From IMG/VR virus record IMGVR_UViG_3300042483_000388: a stretch of DNA of 64,000 nt. One strand, written 5' to 3'. Made by a program: the position numbers and the translations under genes. The notes under the pieces were generated by a model. That model ran no database searches. It saw only the letters and a program-made list of their open reading frames with translations, and had not been told where the DNA came from. Position 1 is the stretch's first letter. Every line of letters starts with the position of its first letter. This document shows positions 9,488 to 54,436 of this stretch, one piece after another. The DNA comes from a virus. Lineage: Duplodnaviria > Caudoviricetes.

Positions 9488-9730
9488 ATGAAAATTGTAA
9501 GACTAACAGAAAATGATTTAGTTCGTATTGTAAGACGTGTTATTAATGAAGAGGAAGATGATATGGATGAGTTAATTGATATAAATGTGGAGGTTGAAAA
9601 TCCCGAATGTTGGGAAAACACAACATCTTCTGATGGTAAACGAAAAAAACGAAGAAGAAAAAGTTCAAGTTGTTCTCGCAAATACAAAACTAAATCAAAA
9701 ACAAGTCATTACGGAAATAATTGGCATTAA
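9488..9730 (+). CDS. small protein with LTE-x-DL-x-RIV-x-x-VINE leader and basic tail
   Basis: MKIVRLTENDLVRIVRRVINEEE; late motif 9465-9471. Confidence 0.75.
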   Translation: MKIVRLTENDLVRIVRRVINEEEDDMDELIDINVEVENPECWENTTSSDGKRKKRRRKSSSCSRKYKTKSKTSHYGNNWH

Positions 9731-9753
9731 AATTAAAATAAAAAATATATATT

Positions 9754-10515
9754 ATGAATAGAAGTTATAGTAAAATTAGACACATACTACAAGCCAATCT
9801 GATGTTGGAGGGAAGAATGATGTCGGAGAAAAGAATATTACTTGAAGAAGATAAAAAAGAAGGGGATATAGTTGCCTCTCCTAGAGACCCTTCCGAAATT
9901 GCAACGGGAATGATTGATGCACCGTTTAATGTTATTAATTCTAATGGTCAATATGGAAAACAATATTATTACACTTGTGTGTCTAACAAAGATCTCCCAC
10001 TAGATAAACAAACACCAGCTGAAAAAGCCGGCGCAATAGTTGACGGAAATAATAATTTAGTTACCGCTGCGGGGTTAGGGTTAATACCAGGATATCAGAA
10101 TAAACTTAATGTTGCATGTAAACCTATTTACGATAACTTAGCAAAATGGAGAAAAACATTTTGTGCTAATCTTAAAAATAAAACAAAACCTAATTACGCT
10201 TGGAATTGTCCTGAAGCTGCAAAACCAGTTGTGGCGGCAGCAGTAACAACTGCAACACCTGAGGAATATATTAACCTTTACAATTCAAATTCACTTAAAT
10301 CCAACCCTAAAATAGTACAACTAATAAAGGATGGTAACATAACAGTGATAGATAAGGAGAATGTTAGTGATAATGGGATGGAGAGAACCTATGAACTAAG
10401 ATATTTTACAACCGGAAAAACATTCACATTAGGACAGGGAACTGGACAAGATAAAGTGATAAATTCCCCAAAAGGTACAGATATTACCGATTTGGTTGTG
10501 TCGTTGACTAAATAG
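9754..10515 (+). CDS. hypothetical protein, possible internal head protein
   Basis: 253-aa ORF; leader MNRSYSKIRHILQANLMLE. Confidence 0.75.
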   Translation: MNRSYSKIRHILQANLMLEGRMMSEKRILLEEDKKEGDIVASPRDPSEIATGMIDAPFNVINSNGQYGKQYYYTCVSNKDLPLDKQTPAEKAGAIVDGNNNLVTAAGLGLIPGYQNKLNVACKPIYDNLAKWRKTFCANLKNKTKPNYAWNCPEAAKPVVAAAVTTATPEEYINLYNSNSLKSNPKIVQLIKDGNITVIDKENVSDNGMERTYELRYFTTGKTFTLGQGTGQDKVINSPKGTDITDLVVSLTK

Positions 10516-10522
10516 TCTATAA

Positions 10523-11038
10523 TTATTTAAACATAGTTAAAACACAATAAAAAATATCACCATTGGTGTAGGTTACCCCACCTTGTGTGATTTTATTGGA
10601 TGTTTTACTACCAACACATATACCATCATATTGACTACTTAACAATAACTTATTGTGTGGAGGTGAATTTTTCCAAACGTTTAAAGCCATTGTTGCACAT
10701 TCCTCATCTGTTGAAAGTTTTATAAATGTGCATAAATTTTCCCCAACACATATGTAGTCAAAATTGTAAACATAGTTTATCCTATCTATAAAATTATCGA
10801 ACGTCTTAGAATTAGATGTTTGTATTTTTTGGGAATGATCTAAAGGAATGGTCGATGTCTCAACCATATAATTTAACATCTGTTTATTTGCAATTTTTGC
10901 TTTTTCAGAATAACATAATGGTGGTAATAGGTTTTCTTTACGATATTCGTTGACTTTTTTAATTATTAATTGATCAACATTTTGACCAAAAAAGAAAAAG
11001 AAAACAAAAATAAAAATAAATAATAAAAAAGTTTTCAT
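10523..11038 (-). CDS. secreted CAP (SCP-like) domain protein
   Basis: Signal peptide; VNEYRKEN..PL, VGENL, WKNSPPHNKLLL; promoter on - strand 11057-11088. Confidence 0.8.
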   Translation of the reverse strand: MKTFLLFIFIFVFFFFFGQNVDQLIIKKVNEYRKENLLPPLCYSEKAKIANKQMLNYMVETSTIPLDHSQKIQTSNSKTFDNFIDRINYVYNFDYICVGENLCTFIKLSTDEECATMALNVWKNSPPHNKLLLSSQYDGICVGSKTSNKITQGGVTYTNGDIFYCVLTMFK

Positions 11039-11089
11039 AGTTTCTGTTTGTTTCTACAAATATATTATAAATAACTCTTGTTTACAAAA

Positions 11090-13147
11090 CTATTCCTTCT
11101 TTTTTCTAACTCTTTTTGGTTTTTCCACAATAACCTCATCAACTTTATTACCAATTACTACGTTCTCATCAACAATCGTTAAATTGTAGTTCTCATCCTC
11201 ATTAATTTCAGACATTAAAATCTTCTCAGAAATTAAATCCTCAATCTTATCTTGGATTGCCCTTTTGATCGGTCTTGCTCCGAATGTTTCGTCAAACCCA
11301 ACTTTGGATATATAATCAATTAGTGATTGGTCGTAAGTAAAGTTGTATTTTTTACCCTCAACACGTTTTAACAATCTATCAATCTCCAACTTGGTAATAA
11401 CGTCAATGTGTTCTTTCTTAAGTGAGTTGAAGACAATAACGTCATCAATACGATTTAAGAATTCAGGGGCAAAAAACTTACTAAGTTCTTTTTTAAGGAT
11501 GTCTCTCTTTTGTTCTTCTTGTATAACATTACTTGAATTATTACTTTTAAATCCAACACCTGTGCCAAAGTCGTGTAGTTTTTTAACACCAATATTGGAG
11601 GTCATAATTATTAAACAATTCTTAAAGTTAATTTTTCTACCTAATGAGTCTGTTATATGTCCATCATCCAAAAGTTGTAATAATGTTGAGAATATATCTT
11701 TATGTGCTTTCTCAATTTCATCAAACAAAATAACCGAATATGGTTTGTTTTTAACTTGTTCTGTAAGTTGTCCACCATCTTCATGACCAACATATCCTGG
11801 AGGTGACCCAATCAAACGAGAAATTGTGTGTTTTTCTTGATATTCAGACATATCAATACGGATGAGATTATCGGGACTACCAAAGATTTCTTTTGCCAAT
11901 TGTTTTGCTAAGAATGTTTTACCGACACCTGTTGAACCTAAGAAGATAAATGAACCAATCGGTTTATTTGGATCTTTAATCCCAATTCTATTTCTACGAA
12001 TAGATTTTGTGATTTTCAAAACTGCCTCTTCTTGACCAATAACGATTGAGTTAAGGTTTTTATCTAAATTAATAAGTGAGTTTTTCTCATCTAAATTTAT
12101 GTTTGAAATTGGAATTTTGGTCATGTTGGAAACAACCTCATAGATTAATTCTTCCGGTATATTTCTTTTACTAATTTTAAGTTCTTCGTTAAACTTTTTC
12201 TTCTCAATTTCTAAATTAGTCAAAACATTTCTCTCTCTATCTCGAAGATTTGCGGCTTGCTCATAATCTTGACGCTTAATTACGTTAATTTTTTCCAATT
12301 TAATGTCGGAAGCTTTACGTTTTAAGTTTTCAATAATTTCGGGAAGTTTAATATCTATTTGCATTCTTGCCCCAACCTCATCCAATATATCAAACGCCTT
12401 ATCGGGAAACTCACGATCTGTGATATATCTATCGGCCAACTCAACAAATATCCGAAGAGTTTCATCACTGTAAATAACTTTATGATGGTCTTCGTATTTT
12501 GATTTACTTTGTTTAAGGATTTCAAATGTTTCTTCTTTGGTTGATGGATCAACGACGACTTTTTGAAATCTCCTCTCTAACGCACCATCTTTTTCGAAGT
12601 TAGTTCTATATTCATCCAAAGTAGTTGCTCCAATACATTGGATCTCACCACGAGATAAGGCTGGTTTAAATATGTTGGAGGCATCTAACGAACCTGAACT
12701 ATTTCCCGCACCTACAATAGTGTGAATTTCATCAATAAAAAGTATGATATTTGGACTATTTTGTAATTCCTCAATAATAACCTTCATTCTTTCTTCAAAC
12801 TGACCACGATATTTGGTGCCCGCAACAATTGAGTTCATATCCAACGATACGATTCTTTTATCTAATAAATTTTTTGGACATTCTCCGCCATGTATCATCA
12901 TTGCTAAACCTTCAACAATGGCTGTTTTACCACATCCAGGTTCACCAATTATAATTGGATTATTTTTCTTACGTCTTGAAAGAATCTGAGCAATCCTAAG
13001 GATTTCCTTTTGTCTACCAACAACTGGATCAAGTTTTCCTTCTTCCGCTAATTTATTTAAATCCTTACTAAAGTTATCAAGTACTGGTGTTCCGCTATCC
13101 GGCTTCTTTTTCCCATTATCTCCCTTATCATCTACAAAGTCTAACAT
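11090..13147 (-). CDS. clpC: ClpC-like Hsp100 AAA+ ATPase lacking the N-terminal domain
   Basis: Two NBDs (GEPGCGKT, GSTGVGKT), LFIDEIH/LFDEIEK Walker B, GYVG pore loop, UVR-like M domain, GVGF ClpP-docking loop. Confidence 0.92.
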   Translation of the reverse strand: MLDFVDDKGDNGKKKPDSGTPVLDNFSKDLNKLAEEGKLDPVVGRQKEILRIAQILSRRKKNNPIIIGEPGCGKTAIVEGLAMMIHGGECPKNLLDKRIVSLDMNSIVAGTKYRGQFEERMKVIIEELQNSPNIILFIDEIHTIVGAGNSSGSLDASNIFKPALSRGEIQCIGATTLDEYRTNFEKDGALERRFQKVVVDPSTKEETFEILKQSKSKYEDHHKVIYSDETLRIFVELADRYITDREFPDKAFDILDEVGARMQIDIKLPEIIENLKRKASDIKLEKINVIKRQDYEQAANLRDRERNVLTNLEIEKKKFNEELKISKRNIPEELIYEVVSNMTKIPISNINLDEKNSLINLDKNLNSIVIGQEEAVLKITKSIRRNRIGIKDPNKPIGSFIFLGSTGVGKTFLAKQLAKEIFGSPDNLIRIDMSEYQEKHTISRLIGSPPGYVGHEDGGQLTEQVKNKPYSVILFDEIEKAHKDIFSTLLQLLDDGHITDSLGRKINFKNCLIIMTSNIGVKKLHDFGTGVGFKSNNSSNVIQEEQKRDILKKELSKFFAPEFLNRIDDVIVFNSLKKEHIDVITKLEIDRLLKRVEGKKYNFTYDQSLIDYISKVGFDETFGARPIKRAIQDKIEDLISEKILMSEINEDENYNLTIVDENVVIGNKVDEVIVEKPKRVRKKKE

Positions 13148-22673: not shown

Positions 22674-23405
22674 ATGGAAGAATTTAAAATATTAGGTCCG
22701 AGAGATTCAGGTAAGAAAGGAATTCTTATTGAATATGATGCTGGATACATCAACCCAAAAGAAAGAAGAAATTTAGATGCTATCAACGAAAATAGAGATA
22801 TGTTGGATCATTCTAAACCATTTGAGTTTTATGCTGTTCTTCAAAAATACGACACCCCAAATAGAAATGGTCGTATATACCCTGAAAGAATATTAAAAAG
22901 AGAGTCGGAGAATTATAAAAAGATGATTGAAAAAGGAACGTCTCTTTCTGAGTTAAATCACCCTGAGTCATCTTTAATTGATTTAGACAGAGCATCACAT
23001 CTTATTACAGAGATATGGTGGGAGGGTCCTGTTTTATTAGGTAAATTGAAATTACTTACAAGTCCAGGTTTCCATGAAAGAGGTATTGTATCAACAAAAG
23101 GGGATTTAGCCGCAAATTTCTTACGTCAGGGGGTTACATTAGGAATATCCTCTCGCGGAGTAGGTTCCCTTAAGAAGGTTGGAGAACAAAATGAAGTTCA
23201 GGATGACTTTGAATTAATTTGTTTTGACCTTGTATCTTCACCATCTACACCGGGAGCTTATTTGTTCTCAGATAAAAACGATAGAATGAAATATGAGGAG
23301 AACTTAGACGAGGAGAAAAAAATGTCAGTAGAAAGAAATGTTGGGGAATCAGGAAACAAATCACTTGACTTAATGAAAAGATTAACCCATTATTTGGATA
23401 AATAA
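22674..23405 (+). CDS. prohead core protease (T4 gp21-like)
   Basis: NRNGRIY, ELNHP, GISSRGVGS, FDLVSSPSTPGA. Confidence 0.93.
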   Translation: MEEFKILGPRDSGKKGILIEYDAGYINPKERRNLDAINENRDMLDHSKPFEFYAVLQKYDTPNRNGRIYPERILKRESENYKKMIEKGTSLSELNHPESSLIDLDRASHLITEIWWEGPVLLGKLKLLTSPGFHERGIVSTKGDLAANFLRQGVTLGISSRGVGSLKKVGEQNEVQDDFELICFDLVSSPSTPGAYLFSDKNDRMKYEENLDEEKKMSVERNVGESGNKSLDLMKRLTHYLDK

Positions 23406-23753: not shown

Positions 23754-25478
23754 ATGGAAAAAAAACAAAATGTAGTAGAAGACGCTCTATTCCAAATTCG
23801 TAATTTGGAAGAGACTCTACAAGAAAATGCAAAAGGAATACTTCAATCTACAATGAAAGAAGAAATCAGACAATTAGTAAAAGAATCTCTTAGGGAACAA
23901 GATGAAGAGGAGATTGAACCATTAACAGGCGGAGAAGCCGAACTTGATTCTGAGACAGAATTTGAAGATGACGACATGGATGACATGGAAGATGATGACA
24001 TGGATGACATGGAAGATGACGAAATGGGTGACGTGGAAGATGACGAAATGGAATTTGATGTTGACGATGAAGAAACTATTGATTTGACAAGTGCGTCAGA
24101 TGAAGAAGTATTAAAGGTTTTCAAAGCTATGGGAGATGAAGATGGAATCATCGTGAAAAAAGAAGGTGGTAATATTCACCTTAAAGATGGTGATAATGAT
24201 TATATGATCCAATTAGGAGAATCTTACATGGACGATGGTCAAGAAGAAGATGAATTTGAACCAACTGACCTTGAAGAAACAATCTATGAAATTCAAATGG
24301 ATGAAGAAGATGATTTAAATCCTGAAGGAGAAACAATCTACGAAATTCAAATGGATGAAGAATACGACGAAATGGATTTTGAAACTCCTGTGAGAGATGC
24401 TATCAGATCTCATAAAGGTAGATTTGAAACTCCTATGAGAGATAGATTAAGATCTCGTATGGAAGATAACGTGGAAGATGACATGTCAGATAGATTCAGA
24501 TCTCGTAGATATAGAGATATGGAAGATGACATGGCAGAAGGTGTTGATCCTGAAATGATGGAATACAATATGTCTAACCTTGATCTTGGTGAAGAAGATG
24601 ATATGTATTCTAGTCCAGAAATGGGTGAAGGAAATCATATGTATGGTAATTCAGAAATGGAAGAAGAAGAAGAAGTGAGTATGAGTGATTTAAACTCAGT
24701 TATGGAAGCCGTTAAAAAAGCTATGAAACCGAAAGGAATTGGAATGGGAAATGCTTCTAAATTCAAATATGGTAAAAAACCTAACATGAGTGGAGGGTTT
24801 AACGAAAAAAGAAAAGAAGGACCTAAATCTGTTGGTACAGGTAAAGCTAGATTTGAATACAAAGAAGAACATGAATATGGTGGTAACTCACACGATTACA
24901 AACGTAAGGATGTTAAGGGTGTTGAGAAAAAAACCGGAGTCGTGAAAGGTCATTTTAAAGATTATGAAGGTAAGAAATCTGAAACTAAAGAATCCGCGAG
25001 AACTTTAGGTAATGGTAGTAGAAATTATCCGGAAAGAAAATCTATACCTAAAATGAGAGTAAGACCAACTAATGAAAGTGTTTCAAATGAAGTGAATTTG
25101 TTAAAAGAAAAAAATAATGAATACAGACAAGCTCTTGATATTTTTAGAACAAAACTTAATGAAGTTGCAACATTTAATTCAAACTTGGCTTATGCAACAA
25201 GACTATTTACTGAACACTCAACAACTAAACAAGAAAAAATAAATATTCTTAGAAGATTTGACAATGTCGATACTTTGAAGGAATCAAAAAGTCTGTATAG
25301 GTCAATAAAGGATGAGTTATCATCTGGATCTAAATCAGAAGAAAGATTAACCGAATCAATTGAAAGAACTGTTAACAGAACCGCATCTACGGGATCGTCA
25401 ACTAATCTAATTGAATCAAAAACGTATGAAAATCCACAATTCTTAAGAATGAAGGATTTGATGACAAAAATAAAATAA
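23754..25478 (+). CDS. prohead scaffold/core protein (gp22-like)
   Basis: Very acidic, coiled-coil C-terminus, immediately upstream of MCP; DDMDDMED-type repeats. Confidence 0.8.
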   Translation: MEKKQNVVEDALFQIRNLEETLQENAKGILQSTMKEEIRQLVKESLREQDEEEIEPLTGGEAELDSETEFEDDDMDDMEDDDMDDMEDDEMGDVEDDEMEFDVDDEETIDLTSASDEEVLKVFKAMGDEDGIIVKKEGGNIHLKDGDNDYMIQLGESYMDDGQEEDEFEPTDLEETIYEIQMDEEDDLNPEGETIYEIQMDEEYDEMDFETPVRDAIRSHKGRFETPMRDRLRSRMEDNVEDDMSDRFRSRRYRDMEDDMAEGVDPEMMEYNMSNLDLGEEDDMYSSPEMGEGNHMYGNSEMEEEEEVSMSDLNSVMEAVKKAMKPKGIGMGNASKFKYGKKPNMSGGFNEKRKEGPKSVGTGKARFEYKEEHEYGGNSHDYKRKDVKGVEKKTGVVKGHFKDYEGKKSETKESARTLGNGSRNYPERKSIPKMRVRPTNESVSNEVNLLKEKNNEYRQALDIFRTKLNEVATFNSNLAYATRLFTEHSTTKQEKINILRRFDNVDTLKESKSLYRSIKDELSSGSKSEERLTESIERTVNRTASTGSSTNLIESKTYENPQFLRMKDLMTKIK

Positions 25479-25511: not shown

Positions 25512-27398
25512 ATGGGAGCATTATTAGAATCAGGTCTTGTTGGTAACATAGGGTTAAAACACCTTAAAGTTATCAAAGAAGACACTATTAACAAATGGAA
25601 CAAATTAGGGTTCCTTGATGGACTTAAAGGTCATCTAAAAGAAAATATGGCTCAATTATATGAGAATCAAGCGTCACATTTGATTAACGAAGCAACTGGA
25701 GAAGGTTCTAACGGAGCATTTGAAACTGTTGTTTTCCCAATCGTAAGACGTGTATTCTCTAAATTGTTAGCTAACGACATCGTATCAGTACAAGCAATGA
25801 ACTTACCTATCGGTAAATTGTTCTACTTCGTACCTAAAATCCAAGGATATCAAAATGAATATCAAGGACCAGATGCGACAGGTGGTATTCATTATCCTCC
25901 AGTTGGAGCACCAAATGGACCTGCTAATGGAGCTGGATATGAGCCAACAGGACCATACGCTTACAAGAAAAACCTTTATGATTTATTCTACGAAGGAAAT
26001 GAGGCAGGAATGGATCCACAAGGATTATTTGACTACTCTAAAGGTAAGTGGACCGCAGTTACTGCAACTACAACAATCCAAGCATGGGCTGGTTCAGCAC
26101 TTGTTAACGCAACTATCAACGGAGGTACTCCTGCAGGTGGAACACAAATTCCAGCAGGTAACATAAGAAAAGTTCTTATGAAAATGTGTGGTTTCGCAAA
26201 TTCAGGAGCTGGTAAATTAATCGGACCTGATGGTAACGAAATGGATAGTGAGGCATTTTTGTCTGACTTGAGAATATTCGCATCAACAGGATTATCCGCA
26301 TCTACTACACCTTGTGACGTTCTTAAAAACAGTGCAGGACAATACATTCCTTTATTATTTAGATGTGTTACTCAAATATACGGTAAAGGTCTTGTTAAAT
26401 ATGGTGGTCAACAATCAACAACATTTGCAAACACTAGTACTCAACCTAACGACGCAGGTAATGGTGGTTCTTACTACGATATCTGTGACTCAGATGGTTG
26501 TATCTATTTAGAAGTAGATTTATCTTGTCCAGTATGTGCTGATTGTGACTCAACATCTTTAGATGGTTACACAGGTACTACAATATACTCAGGTGGATCT
26601 GGAACTTCATTTACTGCATTCTTTAGACGATATGCTAACTTAGAATTTGAAGACGAAATTGGTGAGGTTTCTTTTGATTTAGAATCAGTAACTGTTTCTG
26701 TAACTGAAAGAAAACTAAGAGCACAATGGTCTCCTGAATTAGCTCAAGACGTTGCGGCATTCCACAACATCGACGCTGAAGCTGAATTAACAGCATTGTT
26801 ATCTGAACAAGTAGCAGCTGAAATCGACCGTGAGATCCTTCGTGACTTACGTAAAGGTGCGGCATGGAACTTACGTTGGGATTACAACGGATGGAGAAGA
26901 ATTTCTCAAACAACATCTTACACTCAGAAAGACTGGAACCAAACATTAATTACAGCAATCAATCAGTTGTCTGCACAAATTCACAAATCAACTTTGAGAG
27001 GTGGTGCTAACTGGATCGTTGTTTCTTCTGAGGTTTCTGCTATCTTTGACGATTTAGAATACTTCCACGTATCTAACGCGGCTCCTGAGCAAGATCAGTA
27101 TAACATGGGTATTGAAAGAGTTGGTACTCTTGCAGGACGTTACCAAGTTTATCGTGATCCTTACTTCCCAGCAAACCAAGTTTTGATTGGACACAAAGGA
27201 ACATCATTGTTAGACACAGGTTACATCTACGCACCGTATGTACCATTACAATTAACACCTACAATGTACAATCCGTTCAACTTTACTCCGATCAAAGGAA
27301 TAATGACGAGATACGCGAAAAAAATGGTAAATAATCGCTTTTACGGGAGAATTACCGTAGATGGTGTTCGTACATTCGATTTAAGAGAATTGAGATAA
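25512..27398 (+). CDS. major capsid protein (T4 gp23-like)
   Basis: VSVQAMNLPIGKLFY, RKLRAQWSPELAQD, AEIDREI, YAPYVPL, GIMTRYA. Confidence 0.96.
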   Translation: MGALLESGLVGNIGLKHLKVIKEDTINKWNKLGFLDGLKGHLKENMAQLYENQASHLINEATGEGSNGAFETVVFPIVRRVFSKLLANDIVSVQAMNLPIGKLFYFVPKIQGYQNEYQGPDATGGIHYPPVGAPNGPANGAGYEPTGPYAYKKNLYDLFYEGNEAGMDPQGLFDYSKGKWTAVTATTTIQAWAGSALVNATINGGTPAGGTQIPAGNIRKVLMKMCGFANSGAGKLIGPDGNEMDSEAFLSDLRIFASTGLSASTTPCDVLKNSAGQYIPLLFRCVTQIYGKGLVKYGGQQSTTFANTSTQPNDAGNGGSYYDICDSDGCIYLEVDLSCPVCADCDSTSLDGYTGTTIYSGGSGTSFTAFFRRYANLEFEDEIGEVSFDLESVTVSVTERKLRAQWSPELAQDVAAFHNIDAEAELTALLSEQVAAEIDREILRDLRKGAAWNLRWDYNGWRRISQTTSYTQKDWNQTLITAINQLSAQIHKSTLRGGANWIVVSSEVSAIFDDLEYFHVSNAAPEQDQYNMGIERVGTLAGRYQVYRDPYFPANQVLIGHKGTSLLDTGYIYAPYVPLQLTPTMYNPFNFTPIKGIMTRYAKKMVNNRFYGRITVDGVRTFDLRELR

Positions 27399-28419: not shown

Positions 28420-29358
28420 ATGAGTAGAATAAGTCAAATAATAAGAAAAGTAATTAAAGAGGCGACAGGAGATAGTTCTGGTGGTAGGGGTTCGTATATT
28501 GCACCATTACAACCAGGGTTAAGACCATTTACTCGTGAATCATTACAACCATTTACCGATGCGGTATCTAAATGGAAAAGCCCGTTAGTACAATACGATA
28601 GTTATGATGGCAGTTGGGATTTAAGATTGGGACAGATTAAGGAGTTAGAAAAGACTGCCTCCAAGATACAAGATTACATCAAACACCACCCATATTCAAC
28701 ATTTTCTGATGACGATGGTAGTATTATTAACCAATATTTCCAAGACTCAAAAAAGGCCCCATATAAAGAAAAAATGGAACCATACACAATCAAAGTTAAT
28801 GAATGGGTAGAAATTAAAAATAAAGATTATGTAAACGAAGTAGATAGTTCATCAACTGCGGGTTTATATAATGCACCATTAGAGGTTGGTAGTTATGAAT
28901 GGGAAAAAAATTACTTATCACCATTCACTGAAAAAGTGGAAAGTGAATTTAATAAAAAATCTTTAGAAAATACTTTGAAAAGAAATATAAAACGTATCGT
29001 AGGTGTTTGGGAAAAAAATAAAAATGGTTCATATTTTAGAGATATAGATTATCCCGACACAATTAATGAAGATCTTGCCGTTTGGTTTGGTAAAAAGAAA
29101 AAACCTAAGGGATCTTCCCAACCAAAAGGACCTTGGGTTGACATTTGTCGTAAAGTTGACGGTAAACATCCTCCCTGTGGACGACAAGATACCTCTAAGG
29201 GTTCATACCCTAAATGTAGGGCGGCTGGAGTTGCCGGTAAAATGAGTGATTCTGCAAAAAGATCTGCTTGTCAACAAAAAAGATCTGCTGAGAAAAAAGA
29301 CACTCAAACAGGGAAAGGTCAAAAACCTATCATGACTAGTTATAAGTCTAAAAAATAA
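28420..29358 (+). CDS. multi-module protein with helical leader and basic Cys-containing C-terminal domain
   Basis: MSRISQIIRKVIKE; C-terminal WVDICRKVDGKHPPCGR...YPKC. Confidence 0.75.
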   Translation: MSRISQIIRKVIKEATGDSSGGRGSYIAPLQPGLRPFTRESLQPFTDAVSKWKSPLVQYDSYDGSWDLRLGQIKELEKTASKIQDYIKHHPYSTFSDDDGSIINQYFQDSKKAPYKEKMEPYTIKVNEWVEIKNKDYVNEVDSSSTAGLYNAPLEVGSYEWEKNYLSPFTEKVESEFNKKSLENTLKRNIKRIVGVWEKNKNGSYFRDIDYPDTINEDLAVWFGKKKKPKGSSQPKGPWVDICRKVDGKHPPCGRQDTSKGSYPKCRAAGVAGKMSDSAKRSACQQKRSAEKKDTQTGKGQKPIMTSYKSKK

Positions 29359-29866: not shown

Positions 29867-30328
29867 TTAACAATAAGAACCTGAACAATGTTTTTTACCA
29901 TCAAGACCTTTGATTTTTCCTTTACATACTTGAACAGCATGTCCATTACTGTAAGCACTTGGGTACACGTCATATTTTGCCTTTGCTGATGCCTTACCTC
30001 TTGCACAAAGAGGTGTGCCTGTTTTTTTTCTACCTTCAGACATTGTCATAACCATGTCATCATCATTCATAGACATTCCATCTTTTTTCGATTCATTCAT
30101 CATGAAATCAAATACTTGATCCATATTGTTTTTGGCTTCTGAAATATGATCTTGAGCCCAATCATGTCCATCATCTAAAATAGATTCAACCATACTACGA
30201 TCAAAATCTAATAACATATCACACTGTCTTTTAATTTGTTCTAAATTAGAAAAGAACATATATCTTTGAGATTTTTCTTCGTGTGTTTCTCTAATAACTT
30301 TTTTTATAATTCTATTTAAATCTCTCAT
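29867..30328 (-). CDS. protein with helical leader and basic C-terminal KYDVYPSAY module
   Basis: MRDLNRIIKKVIRE; LCARGKASAKAKYDVYPSAYSNG. Confidence 0.75.
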   Translation of the reverse strand: MRDLNRIIKKVIRETHEEKSQRYMFFSNLEQIKRQCDMLLDFDRSMVESILDDGHDWAQDHISEAKNNMDQVFDFMMNESKKDGMSMNDDDMVMTMSEGRKKTGTPLCARGKASAKAKYDVYPSAYSNGHAVQVCKGKIKGLDGKKHCSGSYC

Positions 30329-47184: not shown

Positions 47185-47187
47185 AAC

Positions 47188-47910: not shown

Positions 47911-48540
47911 TTACTTTATCAACCATTTATAATCTGTGACCTTATTTTCTATATCGCTAAAACTAACTCTTTGGGTTGCAATTACAGGGTAAAAAGAATA
48001 AACATTTAATGATTTTTGTAATTCAGAATATATCACATCTAATGCGTTATCGTATTTTTTTAATCTTTCTAATATAACATTAAATGATTTTTTATTTATT
48101 GCAACACAGTGAGTGCTAAATGTGTTATGTAATTTGCAAACTTTTTCATTTACTATTAATGGAGGTTTTATTCCCATATGTGTATTATGGTTCCCACCAA
48201 AATATAACATATCCCAATCTTTTGGTAACATATTAAAATATTCGTCCATGTCCCCAACTTGTTTTTCAAACTCAACGTCGTCCTCTAATATTAATATTGA
48301 GTTATAACCATTTTGAATTGATTCCTCTAATATTTGTATGTTTGTTAAAACTAATGCCAACCTTGATGGTGTCATAAAACCTGATGAAGTTTGGGTTAAC
48401 TCTTTTCCGTCTACAGCTTTAAATCTATTAACGTTTGTTAGTTTGTTTTTTTCAAATTCAACAACACATTCACTCCACCTATCTGGTCTACGATCTAAAT
48501 TTACGCAATATGTTTTATCAAAAAATTCTGTTATTTTCAT
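47911..48540 (-). CDS. GT25 family (LgtB/Lex2-like beta-galactosyltransferase)
   Basis: VNLDRRPDRW, FKAVDG, ILEDDV, WDMLYFG. Confidence 0.85.
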   Translation of the reverse strand: MKITEFFDKTYCVNLDRRPDRWSECVVEFEKNKLTNVNRFKAVDGKELTQTSSGFMTPSRLALVLTNIQILEESIQNGYNSILILEDDVEFEKQVGDMDEYFNMLPKDWDMLYFGGNHNTHMGIKPPLIVNEKVCKLHNTFSTHCVAINKKSFNVILERLKKYDNALDVIYSELQKSLNVYSFYPVIATQRVSFSDIENKVTDYKWLIK

Positions 48541-49100
48541 TAGTGTCTTACGTTATAATATACCTCAGGAGTAATAACCCAATTATCTGTTAATTTTTTT
48601 AACTTCATTAAAAAATCAAAGTCTTCTCCATCTCGATTATTATCAAATAATAAGTTATCAAATTTATTTTTGTAACAAAAAGATATTCCAACACGACCAA
48701 AAATAATGTCTTTAATTTTTTGTGGTGGTAACACCAAACCATTTTGATATTTCATTCTCCAAACAACAAAATCATTTTCTAAATATTTTTCACTTAGTGT
48801 TGAGATGTAATTTACGTCTATTGTGTCATCATCATCTAAAAATCCAATCCATTCTGTTTTAACCATTTTAATTCCTACGTTTCTAACCAAACCTGATTGA
48901 CCATTTGCCGGGCCAACCAAACCTGTTTTTGGTATCTCTAAAGTTTTTATTCTTTCGTCTTCAAATCCTTTCCCAACAACGCCATCATATAATATAATTG
49001 CGTTCCAATTTGGATTTGTTTGGTTTAATAACGAATCTACGGTTCTTGTGATTGTTGATCTGTTAAGTGAGGGGATAATAAATGTAATAAAAGGTTCCAT
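48540..49100 (-). CDS. glycosyltransferase, GT2 family
   Basis: IIPSLNR, RNVGI, FLDDDD, GEDFDF. Confidence 0.85.
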   Translation of the reverse strand: MEPFITFIIPSLNRSTITRTVDSLLNQTNPNWNAIILYDGVVGKGFEDERIKTLEIPKTGLVGPANGQSGLVRNVGIKMVKTEWIGFLDDDDTIDVNYISTLSEKYLENDFVVWRMKYQNGLVLPPQKIKDIIFGRVGISFCYKNKFDNLLFDNNRDGEDFDFLMKLKKLTDNWVITPEVYYNVRH

Positions 49101-49101
49101 A

Positions 49102-50601
49102 CTAATTAGTAATTACTGTGTATTTTTTAAATTTTTCAAAATTTTCTTTAATAAATGGGTAAACATGTTCATTAAAATCTTGCATCATTTCTAGCTTATT
49201 GTTCTCAACTTCTCTTGTTTGAGATTCGTGGTGATAAGCAACACATTCTCCATTACAATAATTATAATACCCATTTTTTATAAGTTGTAAACCTAAAATC
49301 GCATCCTCATAACAATGTCTAAAGGACTCGTTAAAGCCACCCATAGTTTCAAAAACTTTTTTTCTTACCATCATTAACGCTGCGGTGTTTCCGCCAACCT
49401 CATCAATACCCGTATTAAATTTATAATATGTTTCCCTATTTAAATGGTCTAATGTATATGCCTTATGTTTTTGTCTCAGAATGATTGAAATACCATCGTG
49501 TTGTACTGTGTTGTTTGAAAAATGTAATCGACACCCAACGGTACCAACCCTATCTTTTGTTTTGAATGTTTTTAACATTCCTGAAATTACATCATTTAAT
49601 AACTCAATATCGTTATTACAGAATAATAAAAATTCATAATTGTTTGGTAAATTTTTTACGACATCATTATTTATTTTGGCATAATTGTAATAATCATATT
49701 CAATTAGAGTTATAGATTTAATATTTTCTTTAATCCAATTTTTTTCCTCATCTGTTGATCCTGTATCCGCAATAAAAATATCATATAGGTTTGAATCACA
49801 ATATTTGTGAATTGAGTCGACACATTCTTTTAACATCTCCACCTTACCTTTCGTTGGTATGATTACCGCAACTTTACCAACATTTTTTATTGGTTTGTAT
49901 TTTACTTGTGGAACATAAACTTCGGATGGTTTAAGATCCAATGGTAATACGTAACCCCACTTCTCAAGGAACTTTACCTTACTATCATAAAATTCTTTAT
50001 TTGGTTGACCAACAGATTCGTGAGTTATTTCAAATGATGAGGTTATACCTAATTTAACGTTATCCAAATAATTTGGCAAACAGAATAGGTGGTCGTAAAA
50101 GTGGAACTTACCAATCGTCTCATCAAAAGTATGTTTGATTTTTGTTTTATCAAATGCGATAAATAACCCATCAATTGTAACAACGGGAATTAAGAATGGT
50201 AATTTTGGTGAGTATTTGTTTATCCATTTTTTTTGACCTTCCGGATGGTGATAAACTTGACCCACCATTGTGTAGTGCATCCTATCCCAATAAACTCCAG
50301 TGTCAGGAAAATAACAAGATCCGGCTTTTCCAATTATACCGAATTCGGGGTTATTAGAAAAATCGTTTAACAATTTTTTGCCCCAATTTTTTTCAAGTTT
50401 TATATCATTATGACAACAAACAACAATATCATAAATTGATTCTGTAATCCCTGAATTATAAACACTAGATAAAGAATATTGGTTATGATTAACGTATTCT
50501 AAAATCTGAACATCTTTAACGCCAACGTTTTGTAACAAATGTTGTTTAAATTTGTTATTGTATTCTTGGTCCTTATGTGTTGAGTAAACTATTGTAATCA
50601 T
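49102..50601 (-). CDS. two-domain glycosyltransferase (GT2-like + GT2)
   Basis: N-domain CCHND/IDG/HFYD; C-domain IIPTK, FCNND, YEDA. Confidence 0.85.
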   Translation of the reverse strand: MITIVYSTHKDQEYNNKFKQHLLQNVGVKDVQILEYVNHNQYSLSSVYNSGITESIYDIVVCCHNDIKLEKNWGKKLLNDFSNNPEFGIIGKAGSCYFPDTGVYWDRMHYTMVGQVYHHPEGQKKWINKYSPKLPFLIPVVTIDGLFIAFDKTKIKHTFDETIGKFHFYDHLFCLPNYLDNVKLGITSSFEITHESVGQPNKEFYDSKVKFLEKWGYVLPLDLKPSEVYVPQVKYKPIKNVGKVAVIIPTKGKVEMLKECVDSIHKYCDSNLYDIFIADTGSTDEEKNWIKENIKSITLIEYDYYNYAKINNDVVKNLPNNYEFLLFCNNDIELLNDVISGMLKTFKTKDRVGTVGCRLHFSNNTVQHDGISIILRQKHKAYTLDHLNRETYYKFNTGIDEVGGNTAALMMVRKKVFETMGGFNESFRHCYEDAILGLQLIKNGYYNYCNGECVAYHHESQTREVENNKLEMMQDFNEHVYPFIKENFEKFKKYTVITN

Positions 50602-51203
50602 AAACCAGTACTTCCAAAACCTTTATCTTCCCTATCTTTGGGTGTTAATTCAACTTTCTCAATAAGGTTAACCCATTTTCCGGCAACAACTGGACATAAT
50701 ACAGCTTGTGCCACTTTTTGTCCTTTTTGTATTTTAATTCTATCTTTTGTTGTGTTAAATAAGATAACTTGTATCTCTCCGGTATAATTTTGATCTACGG
50801 TTCCCGGAGAATTTAAAACCATCAACCCTTGTTTTAACGCTAAACCACTTTTTGATCTTATTTGTATTTCATGTCCCTCAGGAATATCCAAATGTATCCC
50901 TGTTGGTATTAACTTTCTATCAAACCCAAATATCCAAATATCTTCTGAGGAACATAAATCCATACCAGAATCAGACTGATATGCGTATGATGGTGTTATG
51001 GCATCAGGATTTGATTTTCTATAACCTAAATCAAGTTGTGGGATGTAATTATCCATGTCGTCCTCCAAGTCTTTTAAATCAATACCGAAAGAGTCCATTA
51101 TTGTTTTGTAATCAATTTCACCATCATCAATATCGTCCATGTCATCTAATAATCTTATTAAACTATTAATGTCATCTTCATTTATATTTTCATCTTCTAT
51201 CAT
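50598..51203 (-). CDS. dut: trimeric dUTPase with acidic N-terminal extension
   Basis: SGMDL, RSKSG, GTVDQNYTGE, AQAV, RED-KGFGSTG. Confidence 0.93.
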   Translation of the reverse strand: MIEDENINEDDINSLIRLLDDMDDIDDGEIDYKTIMDSFGIDLKDLEDDMDNYIPQLDLGYRKSNPDAITPSYAYQSDSGMDLCSSEDIWIFGFDRKLIPTGIHLDIPEGHEIQIRSKSGLALKQGLMVLNSPGTVDQNYTGEIQVILFNTTKDRIKIQKGQKVAQAVLCPVVAGKWVNLIEKVELTPKDREDKGFGSTGL

Positions 51204-51925: not shown

Positions 51926-53140
51926 TTAATTTATTAAGGATATGTAAAATTCCGCCCTATTTTTTGTCACAATATTAAGGTCATATTTGTCTTTTACCGT
52001 TTCATATAATCTCTCACCAAGATCGGTAATCATATTTGGATTTTCAACCAACTTTTTAATGTTTTTTGCCCAATCACTATGATTGTTAGTTTCGTTAACC
52101 AACAATGCGTTTCCATCGGTAAACTGACCTTTATCCAATGCGTGTTTCAAGTCAATGGTATAAGGTCCAACATTCGACGCAATTAACGCTTTCTTATAAA
52201 ATCCTGCTTCAATAACCTTCAATTGTGATTTCATTCTATTGAATATATGGTTTTTAATTGGTGCCAATGAAATGTCAAAGTTAGAATAGTTTCTAGCGTA
52301 TTGGTCAACAGGTCTCGTCCAAACTCTAACATAGTTTTCGTTTTGGATTGCCGGATAGTCCCCCTCTTCAAATTTGTCTAAGTAAATTTTATATTCTGGT
52401 GAGATAATTTTATAATCATTGGTAAAAATTTTCTCATACATTACCCAAACCGTTTCATTAGGTTTAATTGGTCTTTGTTTTTTTTCTCCAGTATCTTTAT
52501 TTAATTCGGTAATAACCCCACGAATATCAAATCCACAAATATAATATTGTAACTTATCTTGTATTTGCCCAAGTTTGTTGGTCATTCCATCTAATAACTT
52601 AAGATCGTGTAAGTGGGATGAACCACCCAACCAACCAACTCGTATCTTATCCGATTTTGGTGTGGGTTGATTAAACTGAGGTTCTGTTGGGTCAATTGCG
52701 TTAGGTAAAACAATAACATTCTTATTGATTTTTCTAATTTCGTTGGCAAATAAGTCAGTTGTTGTTGTAACATATGAACACTCCCTTAAATTGTTTACAA
52801 TTTTTGTATTCATATTTTGTTGTCTAATCAATTCATGAATAGGGTGTTCCTTTGTGGGAAGCCAATAGTCATCAATGTCACCAATAACGATAATACCCAT
52901 AGACTTTAACCTTTTTATAAGTTCAGGACATTCATCAATATTCCCAAAACTTCTATGGAAATGAACTATTTGGTATTTTTTCCAATAATTTATGTCATTA
53001 ATTTTTGGTTGGTAATCAATATCAACGTGAAAATCATTTGGATATAAATTTTGTAGTTTAACGTGGGGGTCTACAGATCTGAACTTTCCTACTCCCGACG
53101 TATCTGAGGGGAGACACAATACTTTAATTTTTTCTTTCAT
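51926..53140 (-). CDS. glycosyltransferase, GT-B (GT4-like)
   Basis: DIDDYW, VLPNAID, GWLGGSSH, KSQLKVIEAG. Confidence 0.85.
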   Translation of the reverse strand: MKEKIKVLCLPSDTSGVGKFRSVDPHVKLQNLYPNDFHVDIDYQPKINDINYWKKYQIVHFHRSFGNIDECPELIKRLKSMGIIVIGDIDDYWLPTKEHPIHELIRQQNMNTKIVNNLRECSYVTTTTDLFANEIRKINKNVIVLPNAIDPTEPQFNQPTPKSDKIRVGWLGGSSHLHDLKLLDGMTNKLGQIQDKLQYYICGFDIRGVITELNKDTGEKKQRPIKPNETVWVMYEKIFTNDYKIISPEYKIYLDKFEEGDYPAIQNENYVRVWTRPVDQYARNYSNFDISLAPIKNHIFNRMKSQLKVIEAGFYKKALIASNVGPYTIDLKHALDKGQFTDGNALLVNETNNHSDWAKNIKKLVENPNMITDLGERLYETVKDKYDLNIVTKNRAEFYISLIN

Positions 53141-53300
53141 ATTTTTTTATAATTTTTTTTAAATAGGTAAGATCATAAAAATCACTTTCCCACATTATTT
53201 CTAAAATATAACCTTTTTCTATTGTTAAGTCAATCTTGTTTTTATCATACTCCCATAATTCTTTTGCCGTCTTTTGTTTTTTAATTAAAAATAGACCAGT
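53124..53300 (-). pseudogene. C-terminal remnant of a Vsr/PD-(D/E)xK-type homing endonuclease
   Basis: AKELWEYDKNKIDL..KGY..EIMWESDF without the N-terminal catalytic part or a credible start. Confidence 0.5.
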
Positions 53301-53376
53301 CTTATCAAAAGGTAAAAATATAAACACAAAAAAAACCCCCACTTTAGATGGAGGTTATAAGAAATTATAAAAAATA

Positions 53377-54036
53377 TTATTTTGCCATTTTCTTAACTTT
53401 CAGAACTTTACCTTCAAATAGGTGTTGTCCCACCCTGAATTTAAATAAATCACTACTTCTTGATTCAGATTCCACTAAAAGACCATTTTCTTTTAATACG
53501 TCTTCTACCGTTTCTCGAACAATATCTCTAATATCATTTGATGATAAACCAAGAGATGGTTGTTGTGTTTGTTGTTGAGGTTGTCTTTTTTGTATTTGTT
53601 CATTAACAATATCTCCCTTTGCGTTTGTTTTCATTAGTCGAGAAGCTTTCTCAACTAATTCGTCGGAAATTACACTTCCAGAACCCATACCCATTGTTGG
53701 TTGTTGTATTGGGTGTTCCATCATTAATCTTTTAATTTCATCTGGAAGCTTTGAGTTAGATATTCTATCTGCTGTTGGTGGGCCAGAATGTGATTGTGTT
53801 GGACGAGATTCTTGAGTTTCCTGTAAAAGATCGTTAGGTAAGTTGTAAGTCGCGTTCATAGGTTGAAAGTTCTCAACTCTTGGTGATGTATGGTTACTAT
53901 TATTAGATGATGCATTGTCATCTTGGCTTGAGTAATCCCCATCCATTGTTCCCTGTCCTCTACCCATATTGTTATGTTTTTCCATGATCTTCTTTGAGAC
54001 CATTAATCTTTGCATTAATTCGTTTTCTGATGTCAT
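53377..54036 (-). CDS. hypothetical low-complexity protein
   Basis: 219 aa; IRDIVRETVEDVLKE segment. Confidence 0.75.
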   Translation of the reverse strand: MTSENELMQRLMVSKKIMEKHNNMGRGQGTMDGDYSSQDDNASSNNSNHTSPRVENFQPMNATYNLPNDLLQETQESRPTQSHSGPPTADRISNSKLPDEIKRLMMEHPIQQPTMGMGSGSVISDELVEKASRLMKTNAKGDIVNEQIQKRQPQQQTQQPSLGLSSNDIRDIVRETVEDVLKENGLLVESESRSSDLFKFRVGQHLFEGKVLKVKKMAK

Positions 54037-54055
54037 ATTATATTATATTTTTATT

Positions 54056-54436
54056 TCAAAAGACTGCGTTTATGAGAACCCTTGACATACTTTTATCCCC
54101 ATTTGGGTTATAGTTTGGTCTTGGGGTATCGAATATTTCAGTTGTTGGTCTAATAAACTGAGTTTTATCAATTCTAAACATTCTCCATCCAGGTAATGGT
54201 TTCTCACCCTTGTATGCTGTGTGAGATGCCCCCTCTTTATCCCAAGCTCGTAAAACAGGATTCCCACTTTTACTATAACCAAAACATACAGGTTCAATAA
54301 CCCTTAACCCTTTACCCCCTGGTTCATCACCATCGTAATAAATTGCACACACTCTTCTTTGCTTTATCGCATCAATAACTTGGTCTTTTGATGCTACTTC
54401 TAATATAAGACTATTGAGAGTGTTGTAAAGTTTCAT
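54056..54436 (-). CDS. standalone WYL-domain-like protein
   Basis: AIKQRR...IYY, RVIEP, LRAW, WRMFRIDK. Confidence 0.7.
   Translation of the reverse strand: MKLYNTLNSLILEVASKDQVIDAIKQRRVCAIYYDGDEPGGKGLRVIEPVCFGYSKSGNPVLRAWDKEGASHTAYKGEKPLPGWRMFRIDKTQFIRPTTEIFDTPRPNYNPNGDKSMSRVLINAVF

What the first reader, a model, noticed from the sequence alone, without database searches (positions are those of the whole stretch)
9488..54436. Shared amphipathic leader/tail ending in hydrophobic-x-E across many unrelated proteins: a candidate capsid-targeting system
Seen: N-terminal MKIVRLTENDLVRIVRRVINE (9488), MSRISQIIRKVIKE (28420), MRDLNRIIKKVIRE (29867-30328), MKLYNTLNSLILE (54056-54436), MRKRLLIE (7244) and MNRSYSKIRHILQANLMLE (9754). 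Internal: IRQLVKESLRE (scaffold) and IRDIVRETVEDVLKE (53377). C-terminal: LIQEIYRIKDIMKKIL (M15 peptidase) and IKEDLDRINQIIKQII (54725). The MCP N-arm has LLES/IKED/LINE. Known: T4 gp21 cleaves after hydrophobic-x-Glu, and T4 internal proteins use a short N-terminal capsid-targeting sequence ending in such a site. Inference: a portable helix binds the scaffold, is clipped by the prohead protease, and loads diverse cargo (peptidase, WYL, basic proteins) into the head for ejection.
Basis: partly seen in the sequence, partly recalled or inferred. Interest (0 to 1): 0.75.

Follow-up and report, generated by a model that had tools for sequence, protein, structure and literature searches.

The report
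Portable capsid-address helix on phage proteins
An uncultured ~300 kb T4-like phage lineage attaches one short helix, flanked by the cutting motif of its head protease, to either end of dozens of unrelated proteins, most likely to load them into the capsid as T4 does with its internal proteins; this is inferred from sequence only.

Summary
The core observation is real. A 13-22 residue helix starts three window genes (9488, 28420, 29867). The long form is MK+II+LTE.DL.RIV+RVI.E and the short form is M..L.(R/Q)II+KVI.E. In related contigs it heads 99 ORFs from 26 unrelated body families. Complete relatives (272-321 kb) carry 9-14 long-form copies each. P1 is Glu in 84 of 84 distinct junctions and P3 is I/L/V/M. 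Codon use shows that selection acts on the peptide.

A sister C-terminal tail (h-x-E-xxx-RI(K/N)D(I/L)(I/M)KKI(L/I)-stop) ends two unrelated families, at 4358-5176 and 54725-55195. The long module itself also ends some 28420 homologues.

These are 54056, 7244, the 53377 internal helix and the internal scaffold helix. A loose 'hydrophobic-x-E' occurs in 52% of all N-termini. 9754 carries a different, single-copy leader.

The capsid-targeting reading is plausible but unproven:
- The phage has a gp21-type protease.
- The 28420 junction copies the predicted capsid-protein maturation site.
- Tail-like helices end the scaffold and many T4-type proteases.

Against it, the tailed peptidase sits in a conserved holin cassette, so it may simply be the endolysin.

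This scan has flagged similar leader systems before, in other windows of this genome and in other T4-like phages.

The parts
9488..9550 (+). Long-form leader (21 aa, MKIVRLTENDLVRIVRRVINE) of the 80-aa gene 9488-9730. The body is acidic, then strongly basic.
   Evidence: 27.6-43.3 bits to leader profiles. Homologues keep the leader while the bodies are unrelated.
28420..28461 (+). Short-form leader (14 aa, ends VIKE|ATGD) of gene 28420-29358 ('family A'; DUF5872-like Cys-rich basic C-domain).
   Evidence: 17.5 bits. E14 is one of only 4 invariant columns in 23 homologues. The junction resembles the MCP maturation site.
30287..30328 (-). Short-form leader (14 aa, MRDLNRIIKKVIRE) of gene 29867-30328 ('family B').
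   Evidence: 20.9 bits. Homologues of the same body carry the long form instead (L066, L040, L072).
5123..5173 (+). C-terminal tail (..IQE IYRIKDIMKKIL-stop) of the VanY/M15 peptidoglycan peptidase 4358-5176, after a ~110-aa low-complexity linker.
   Evidence: Pfam VanY 2.9e-12. The tail is kept while the catalytic domain is swapped (VanY or M23) in relatives. Reciprocal profile hits to the 54725 family.
54728..54778 (-). C-terminal tail (..IKE DLDRINQIIKQII-stop) of gene 54725-55195.
   Evidence: E143, R147, I148 and N149 are invariant in 38 homologues down to 40% identity. The AF2 model shows a folded domain (1-96), a disordered linker and a terminal helix at 137-155.
25434..25475 (+). C-terminal helix of the scaffold (..NPQFLRMKDLMTKIK-stop); scaffold gene 23754-25478.
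   Evidence: Near-invariant in 77 scaffolds of very different length. It is the next non-self family hit by the M15-tail profile, at the C-end (iE 0.11-0.5).
23361..23402 (+). C-terminal helix of the gp21-type prohead protease (..VGE SGNKSLDLMKRLTHYLDK-stop); gene 22674-23405.
   Evidence: phrog_207 4e-41 and PF03420. The C-end is conserved in 57 relatives and is among the top hits of the scaffold C-end profile.
25512..25691 (+). Predicted MCP propeptide (residues 1-60), ending LINE|ATGEGS. It contains LLE|S and KVIKE|D. MCP gene 25512-27398.
   Evidence: Aligns with the T4 gp23 site LTE|AEIGG. 'LINEA' is invariant in 81 MCPs and the sequence turns variable right after it.
9754..9852 (+). Separate 33-aa leader (MNRSYSKIRHILQANLMLE..) of gene 9754-10515. 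It is not the same motif.
   Evidence: The leader is conserved and the bodies fall into about 8 BLAST-unrelated groups. Found as one copy in one of four relatives' genomes.
7244..7267 (+). MRKRLLIE start of gene 7244-8389. It is a possible short propeptide, not a portable tag.
   Evidence: Homologues keep basic-h-x-E followed by an acidic run. No profile score and no sharing with other families.
54398..54436 (-). MKLYNTLNSLILE start of gene 54056-54436. Rejected as a tag.
   Evidence: The whole protein is 70-100% conserved, with no sharing and no profile score.
2967..3143 (+). Holin gene heading the conserved cassette that ends with the tailed peptidase (context for the rival reading).
   Evidence: Pfam Phage_holin_10 4.3e-17. 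The order holin, TM protein, Pyr_excise-like gene, tailed hydrolase is conserved in relatives.

Best explanation
The module is an address tag for the prohead core of a distant T4-like jumbo phage. It is a short amphipathic helix (core L-x-R-I-(I/V)-K-K-V-I) bounded by L/I/V-x-Glu sites.

Inferred mechanism: during head assembly the helix docks tagged proteins onto a core or shell component. The likeliest docking site is the one used by the C-terminal helices of the scaffold and the protease. The gp21-type protease then cuts after the flanking Glu residues. That frees the cargo inside the head, for release with the DNA.

Shown here: the tag exists, it is portable to either terminus and to fusion junctions, it is under peptide-level selection, and its invariant residues are exactly those of the protease motif.

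Inferred only: binding, cleavage, packaging and ejection.

The N-terminal form marks roughly 10-14 small proteins per genome. The C-terminal form marks one to three.
For: (1) T4-type head module. TerL, portal, a PF03420 protease with ELNHP and SSRG, an acidic scaffold and a gp23-like MCP are all present.

(2) Portability. 99 leader ORFs with 84 distinct junctions fall into 26 BLAST-unrelated body families. Complete relatives carry 9-14 long-form copies, with E-values down to 5e-14. One body family carries the long or the short form interchangeably.

(3) Protease-motif signature. L6, E8 and E21 are the only invariant leader columns. P1 is E in 84 of 84 junctions and P3 is I/L/V/M in 84 of 84. 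In the tails, h-x-E sits 3-4 residues before the Arg of the helix, and E143 is invariant.

(4) The family A junction mimics the MCP maturation site, which aligns to the known T4 gp23 cut.

(5) The long module closes family A proteins in L029 (iE 8e-8) and L068, and joins two bodies in L012 and L018.

(6) Synonymous codons vary freely. Codon-position identity is 0.72, 0.78 and 0.55 for positions 1, 2 and 3.

(7) Link to core proteins.
- The scaffold C-end profile hits M15-family tails and protease C-ends first.
- A tail-like regex occurs in the last 22 residues of 15 of 81 diverse PF03420 proteases and nowhere else in them.
- The same regex marks only 2 of 202 families in the loci, and those are the two tail families.

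(8) T4 precedent. Propeptides of 10-19 residues target the hypervariable internal proteins to the core. Alt and gp21 are also processed at their C-termini (PMC9026906, PMC3012670).

(9) A fold like the 54725 N-domain recurs fused to prohead proteases and portals, though only weakly (TM about 0.47-0.49).
Against: - There is no virion proteome, no cultured relative carrying the tag and no cleavage data.
- The co-fold of the MCP with the 54725 protein gave no answer.
- The tailed peptidase is the last gene of a conserved holin cassette, so it may be an endolysin whose helix serves lysis.
- Cross-similarity between leader, tail, scaffold and protease helices is weak by profile score (0.1-30 iE; under 4 bits for distant proteases).
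- The regex test was designed after seeing the data.
- E and D before a helix can be N-caps rather than cut sites.
- The upstream TATTTAT element is only mildly enriched (48% against 34% of genes).
- The requirement that hits align through the last profile column favours Glu somewhat.
Confidence: 0.55

Rival explanations
1. The helices are membrane- or envelope-active amphipathic helices of the MinD/FtsA type, or like the cationic C-terminal helices of endolysins. The tailed peptidoglycan hydrolase would be the endolysin of the holin cassette. Its helix would hold it at the membrane or help breach the outer membrane. The N-terminal versions would anchor small host-takeover proteins.
For: The holin (Phage_holin_10, 4.3e-17) lies 1.2 kb upstream of the peptidase. 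The order holin, TM protein, third gene, tailed hydrolase is conserved in relatives. The catalytic domain is swapped (VanY or M23) while the tail is kept, as in modular endolysins. The tail is cationic and amphipathic and sits at the extreme C-terminus.
Against: This reading does not explain the invariant Glu with a hydrophobic P3 at every junction. It does not explain the copy of the MCP maturation site, the same tail on an acidic non-lytic protein in another operon, or the similar helices on scaffold and proteases. The leader is highly charged and has no hydrophobic core.
Confidence: 0.15
2. The module is a docking tag for some other shared partner. Candidates are a degron or adaptor signal for the phage's own N-domain-less ClpB/C-like unfoldase and M42-like peptidase encoded beside several tagged genes, or a recognition leader for a modifying enzyme, as was proposed for a shared tag in phage RB43.
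For: The ClpB/C-like AAA+ gene (11090-13147) and the M42-like peptidase (8382-9419) sit between and next to the tagged genes 7244, 9488 and 9754. The peptidase is again flanked by leader genes in a distant relative (L243). Terminal tags are how Clp systems choose substrates (established knowledge).
Against: Most leader genes in complete relatives lie in arrays far from that island. Families A and B sit beside the MCP. No modifying enzyme was seen beside the arrays. The junction mimicry of the MCP site and the h-x-E invariance point to the head protease. Co-occurrence with any enzyme was not measured.
Confidence: 0.15
3. The shared helix is an intrinsic functional element, such as an oligomerisation or nucleic-acid-binding helix. 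It would have spread by recombination among fast-evolving small genes, with no sorting role. The weaker examples are compositional chance in an AT-rich genome.
For: K/I/E-rich helices are common at 31% GC. 52% of window proteins have h-x-E near the N-terminus. Many bodies are basic or Cys-rich.
Against: Chance is excluded for the core motif. The strict terminal position, a disordered linker right after the junction and use on 26 unrelated bodies argue for a separable tag rather than part of each fold.
Confidence: 0.1

Closest known systems
Capsid targeting sequence (CTS) and propeptides of phage T4 internal proteins IPI, IPII, IPIII, Alt, gp67 and gp68, removed by the gp21 prohead protease (Mullaney & Black 1996; reviews PMC9026906, PMC3012670)
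   Same: T4-type head module with a PF03420 protease. A short terminal peptide is shared by otherwise unrelated, fast-evolving small proteins. The tag ends in hydrophobic-x-Glu. T4 Alt and gp21 also lose C-terminal pieces.
   Different: There is no sequence similarity to the T4 tag, and the T4 genome has no significant match to the leader profile (best E 0.066). The module is longer (13-22 against 10 aa) and has two flanking sites. It is used at N-termini, at C-termini and as an in-frame junction. It marks about 10-14 genes per genome rather than 3-4. Nothing has been shown experimentally.
Propeptide processing of head and ejection proteins in giant phages phiKZ, 201phi2-1 and SPN3US (S/A-x-E motif; PMC5694885, PMC10052503, PMC7411985)
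   Same: A jumbo phage in which many head-internal proteins are cut after Glu by a T4-related protease. Propeptides carry several redundant sites.
   Different: Those propeptides are long and not one shared portable sequence. The P3 preference is small (S/A/G) rather than I/L/V.
C-terminal encapsidation tails: the HK97 protease C-terminus, the herpesvirus protease-scaffold shared C-terminus that binds the major capsid protein, and encapsulin cargo-loading peptides (from my own knowledge, not checked in papers here)
   Same: A short C-terminal peptide, shared by scaffold or protease and by cargo, directs proteins into an HK97-fold shell.
   Different: Here the similarity of the cargo tail to the scaffold and protease ends is weak statistically. 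The receptor is unknown, and the tail is preceded by a putative cut site.
Leader systems reported earlier by this scan in other T4-like phages (e1-3862018, e1-1066390, e1-3018276) and in other windows of this genome (e1-5322155, e1-5322076)
   Same: The same kind of observation and the same reading. Note e1-5322155 lists LTESDL.RIV..VIKE in this genome.
   Different: This report adds the C-terminal and junction use of the module, the mimicry of the MCP site, the holin-cassette caveat and the rejection of the loose examples.

Membership tests
T4-type capsid-targeting / propeptide system | The genome encodes a gp21-type (Peptidase S77, PF03420) prohead protease with catalytic His and Ser. | tested here: met
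   phrog_207 4e-41. PF03420 on the identical database protein. ELNHP and SSRG align with T4 gp21.
T4-type capsid-targeting / propeptide system | The same short terminal peptide is found on otherwise unrelated proteins. | tested here: met
   26 BLAST-unrelated body families among 99 leader ORFs. 9-14 copies per complete relative.
T4-type capsid-targeting / propeptide system | The tag ends in the protease motif (L/I-x-Glu). | tested here: met
   P1 is E in 84 of 84 junctions and P3 is I/L/V/M in 84 of 84. L6, E8 and E21 are the only invariant leader columns.
T4-type capsid-targeting / propeptide system | The tag is cleaved off by the prohead protease in assembled heads. | not testable with these tools
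   This needs N-terminomics of virions or an in vitro cleavage assay. Only the mimicry of the MCP site supports it.
T4-type capsid-targeting / propeptide system | The tag is necessary and sufficient for packaging into the prohead. | not testable with these tools
   No cultured host or phage carries the tag. The co-fold gave no verdict.
T4-type capsid-targeting / propeptide system | Sequence homology to the T4 CTS itself. | tested here: not met
   The leader profile finds nothing significant in the T4 genome, nor in immuto, Mel-JY01, LR756508 or LR756502. The system is therefore an analogue specific to this lineage.
Endolysin of a holin-endolysin lysis cassette (for gene 4358-5176) | A peptidoglycan hydrolase domain encoded next to a holin, in conserved order. 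| tested here: met
   VanY 2.9e-12. Phage_holin_10 4.3e-17. Synteny is conserved in the loci that include the cassette.
Endolysin of a holin-endolysin lysis cassette (for gene 4358-5176) | It is the only or main lytic enzyme of the phage and is absent from virions. | not tested
   The whole genome of the window is not held, and there are no proteomics.
Scaffold- or protease-type C-terminal encapsidation tail | The cargo tail resembles the C-terminus of the phage's own scaffold or protease. | tested here: inconclusive
   Top-ranked reciprocal hits but weak scores (iE 0.03-0.5). The post hoc regex is in 15 of 81 protease C-ends against 2 of 202 control families. The narrow tail profile gives under 4 bits on distant proteases.

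The most novel reading that the evidence does not exclude
One cleavable address helix works at either terminus and as a polyprotein junction, and derives from the same element that brings the protease and scaffold into T4-type proheads. It would define the whole injected proteome (25 or more cargo families) of an abundant, uncultured jumbo-phage lineage. It would also suggest that the C-terminal helix of gp21-family proteases is the ancestral core-targeting signal, something still unresolved for T4 itself.
Probability: 0.35. Interest if true: 0.7.

Novelty: new variant of a known kind. Interest (0 to 1): 0.55.

Why it matters
If the tag does sort proteins into the head, a simple profile search would list the proteins this widespread uncultured phage group delivers into its hosts. 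Those would be candidate anti-defence and takeover factors, and none has a known function. The tag would also be longer and usable at either end, which could make it a second packaging tag for engineering T4-like capsids.

The recurring C-terminal helix on gp21-family proteases offers a testable answer to how the T4 protease itself enters the core. The T4 literature lists that as an open point (PMC9026906).

If the tail turns out to be a lysis or membrane helix instead, the finding reduces to an ordinary lineage-specific leader family.

Tried and rejected
- Co-fold of the MCP with the 54725 protein: no verdict (score 0.00, folded without alignments). This is evidence neither for nor against binding.
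- Profile-profile comparison of leader and tail alignments (hhalign): it aligned 5 irrelevant columns and is not informative at this length.
- Narrow tail profile against 81 distant PF03420 proteases: best score 3.7 bits, not significant. Only a looser regex designed after the fact shows enrichment.
- Megablast of the head module against cultured phages: no match. Family A protein against phages: no match. Family B matches only through its DUF5872-like end, or in one 642-kb uncultured phage that has a different N-terminus.
- Leader profile in T4, Flavobacterium phage immuto, Microcystis phage Mel-JY01 and two huge uncultured phages: nothing significant.
- PDB fold search with the 54725 model: nothing.
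- Upstream TATTTATA element as evidence of late co-expression. It is strongly oriented: 16 of 21 sites lie upstream of genes, including TerL, portal, protease, scaffold and the tagged genes. However, it precedes 34% of all genes in the loci against 48% of leader genes, so it discriminates poorly.
- Idea that the tail resembles the phage tmRNA tag: no resemblance in any frame of the tmRNA region.
- Unbiased clustering of N-termini: single linkage merged too much, so it was used only to spot further leader types.
- Whole-genome scan of the window's own genome: no genome is held.

Full report
**What the window is**

The 64 kb window has about 31% GC and belongs to an uncultured, distant T4-like myophage.
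- The plus strand carries TerL (17409-19184), portal (19414-21195), a gp21-type prohead protease (22674-23405; phrog_207 4e-41), a long acidic scaffold (23754-25478) and a gp23-like major capsid protein (25512-27398; phrog_138 5e-68).
- The nearest cultured capsid proteins are only 41-45% identical. They come from Flavobacterium phage immuto and Microcystis phage Mel-JY01, alongside the uncultured phage record LR756508.
- IMG/VR holds hundreds of contigs with 75-97% identical capsid proteins. Several are near-complete genomes of 272-321 kb.
- No whole genome is held for the window itself.

**The N-terminal module is real**

- Three window genes start with one helix: 9488 (MKIVRLTENDLVRIVRRVINE), 28420 (MSRISQIIRKVIKE) and 29867 on the minus strand (MRDLNRIIKKVIRE).
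- A regex scan of about 1.1 Mb of related loci in six frames found 48 matches. Every one had an in-frame Met within 12 residues upstream.
- A profile built from these hits scores the three window genes at 27.6, 17.5 and 20.9 bits. The best score in 100 shuffled window proteomes was 10.3.
- Long and short forms are one family. The body family of 29867 (..RYMFFSNLEQ..) carries the short form in the window and the long form in L066, L040 and L072.
- Homologues of the 9488 leader keep the 22 residues while the sequence after it is unrelated.
- Across all sampled loci, 99 ORFs carry the leader. They give 84 distinct junctions and 26 BLAST-unrelated body families.
- Four long relatives hold 9-14 long-form copies each, with E-values down to 5e-14. 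The copies mostly head ORFs of 90-190 aa that lie in arrays.
- Paralogous leaders differ freely at synonymous sites. Identity at codon positions 1, 2 and 3 is 0.72, 0.78 and 0.55, and identical residues share a codon only 58% of the time. Flanking DNA is not conserved. Selection therefore acts on the peptide, not on a DNA or RNA element.

**The conserved residues are those of the protease motif**

- In an alignment of 14 diverse long leaders the only invariant columns are L6, E8 and E21. That is an L-x-E site followed by the Glu of a second h-x-E site.
- In all 84 distinct junctions P1 is Glu and P3 is I, L, V or M. P1' is mostly Q, A, E, S or T. The filter used favours Glu somewhat, which I note as a mild bias.
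- T4 gp21 cuts after L/I-x-Glu, and Asp at P1 blocks cutting but not targeting (PMC9026906).
- The window protease keeps the ELNHP and SSRG motifs of T4 gp21 and is PF03420.
- A global alignment of the capsid-protein N-termini puts the known T4 gp23 cut (LTE|AEIGG) on LINE|ATGEGS of the window protein.
- In 81 related capsid proteins residues 1-60 are almost invariant and 'LINEA' is invariant. The sequence becomes variable immediately afterwards.
- The junction of the 28420 family (..VIKE|ATGDSSGG, and in relatives ..VLSE|ATSDSGGS) closely matches that site (consensus LINE|ATSDGSSG). E14 is one of only four invariant columns of that family.

**The module also works at C-termini and as a junction**

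- Two unrelated window proteins end in h-x-E-xxx-RI(K/N)D(I/L)(I/M)KKI(L/I)-stop. They are the VanY/M15 peptidase (4358-5176) and the 156-aa protein at 54725-55195.
- A profile built from one family alone finds the other as its best non-self hit among 8,477 ORFs, exactly at the C-terminus (iE 0.0014-0.025).
- In the 54725 family E143, R147, I148 and N149 are invariant down to 40% identity.
- The AF2 model shows a confident domain (residues 1-96), a disordered linker and a terminal helix.
- The long N-terminal module itself closes 28420 homologues in L029 (..KTIKLTENDLIRIVKKVLVN-stop, iE 8e-8) and L068. It also links two bodies in frame in L012 and L018.
- The strict tail form is rare, at one to three proteins per genome.

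**Links to prohead core proteins**

- The scaffold ends in ..NLIESKTYENPQFLRMKDLMxKxK-stop in 77 relatives, although scaffold length varies from 473 to 675 aa.
- A profile of that scaffold end ranks M15-family tails and protease C-ends first among non-scaffold ORFs (E 0.03-0.06).
- The M15-tail profile ranks the scaffold end next after the 54725 family (iE 0.11-0.5).
- The protease ends in ..(V/I)GE(S/T)GxKSLDLMK(K/R)LxDYLxK in 57 relatives. T4 gp21 ends ..AEAMKKAL.
- Among 81 full-length representatives of distant PF03420 proteases, 15 carry a tail-like pattern in their last 22 residues and none carries it elsewhere. An example is ..SDRINRILNDILQKS.
- Only 2 of 202 control families have the same pattern at the C-end, and those are the two tail families.
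- That regex was written after seeing the data, and the narrow tail profile does not reach significance on these proteases. I treat the link as suggestive only.
- The 54725 N-domain weakly resembles a domain fused to prohead proteases and portals in other phages (Foldseek E 6e-3 to 0.2; Atlas TM 0.47-0.49).

**What fails**

- The loose criterion of hydrophobic-x-E within the first 25 residues fits 37 of 71 window proteins.
- MKLYNTLNSLILE (54056) and MRKRLLIE (7244) belong to proteins that are conserved throughout, and no other family shares them.
- The 53377 helix is part of a conserved C-terminal domain.
- 9754 has its own 33-residue leader with divergent bodies. It was found as one copy in one of four relatives' genomes searched.

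**The main caveat**

- 2967-3143 is a Phage_holin_10 holin (4.3e-17).
- The order holin, TM protein, Pyr_excise-like gene, tailed hydrolase is conserved in relatives.
- The hydrolase domain changes between VanY/M15 and M23 while the tail stays.
- The peptidase may therefore be the endolysin, with the helix serving lysis or membrane binding.
- That rival does not explain the invariant Glu, the copy of the capsid-protein site, or the same tail on 54725.

**Other rivals and what was not possible**

- A phage ClpB/C-like unfoldase (11090-13147) and an M42-like peptidase (8382-9419) lie among tagged genes. They offer a degron or adaptor rival that I could not test.
- The leader is specific to this lineage. 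It is absent from T4, immuto, Mel-JY01 and two huge uncultured phages, so no cultured system is at hand.
- The single co-fold allowed gave no verdict.

**Comparison and verdict**

- The closest known system is the T4 capsid targeting sequence with gp21 processing. There, propeptides of 10-19 residues sort hypervariable internal proteins into the core, and Alt and gp21 are also trimmed at the C-terminus (PMC9026906, PMC3012670).
- The system here works like T4's by every sequence criterion I could test, but it is not homologous in sequence.
- It differs in length, in having two flanking sites, in its use at both ends and at junctions, and in copy number.
- Earlier notes of this scan describe similar leaders in other windows of this genome and in other T4-like phages. 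The kind of finding is therefore not new to the scan.
- I rate it a new variant of a known kind. My confidence in the capsid-targeting mechanism is 0.55 and my interest score is 0.55.

Noticed in passing
window 6021-6424 (+): Full-length match to the GOLLD RNA family (RF02032, 287 bits, E 2e-82), in a gene-poor stretch next to the tmRNA.
   Followed up: no
window 6767-7166 (-): tmRNA found by Rfam (97 bits, E 4.5e-38) but missed by ARAGORN. Together with the M42-like peptidase (8382-9419) and an N-domain-less ClpB/C-like AAA+ protein (11090-13147) it forms the 'proteostasis island' that earlier notes describe in relatives.
   Followed up: partly
window 534-1900 (+): Cluster of six tRNA genes (His, Trp, Ile, Met, Glu, Asp).
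   Followed up: no
window, e.g. upstream of 17409, 19414, 21220, 22674, 23754, 28420, 9488, 4358, 7244: Strongly oriented promoter-like element (R)TATTTATA, 11-35 nt before start codons. 16 of 21 occurrences lie in sense orientation within 45 nt upstream of a gene and none lies in coding sequence. It is probably the phage's main (late?) promoter.
   Followed up: partly
window 2967-5176 (+) and loci L171-L223: Conserved cassette of holin, N-terminal-TM protein, Pyr_excise-like protein and peptidoglycan hydrolase. The catalytic domain is exchanged between VanY/M15, M23 and unassigned domains, while the linker and terminal helix are kept.
   Followed up: partly
L009, L012, L018/L019, L031, L027, L049 (homologues of window 28420-29358): In several relatives the 28420-family ORF runs in frame, without a stop, into a second leader plus another body. 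This is a polyprotein-like arrangement with the module as the junction.
   Followed up: partly
window 27507-28187 (+): A homing-endonuclease-like gene sits between the capsid gene and the next head-region gene, in the same place as segD between genes 23 and 24 of T4.
   Followed up: no
window 29050-29355 (+) and 29870-30010 (-): Both leader-bearing neighbours of the capsid gene end in a very conserved, basic, four-Cys domain related to DUF5872. It also occurs without any leader in pelagiphage podoviruses (HTVC023P gp51).
   Followed up: partly
L241 (G002:109800-115400), L242, L066, L012: Relatives carry further N-terminal leader types on small array genes, MKIIITE.Q.. and ..ESEK.RIL.LH.., which are absent from this window. 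The second type does not end in h-x-E.
   Followed up: no
window 14697-16151 (+): A 484-aa protein in the head/packaging region with (GMPPMDDA)n-like repeats and long acidic runs. Relatives have an unrelated ~455-aa leader-bearing protein (..IVKE|APVDYGDY..) at about the same distance upstream of the MCP gene.
   Followed up: partly
window 37000-51000 (-): Long operon that looks like glycosyltransferase and sugar-nucleotide pathway genes, judged from the N-terminal sequences only. Other first-stage notes on this genome discuss virion glycosylation.
   Followed up: no
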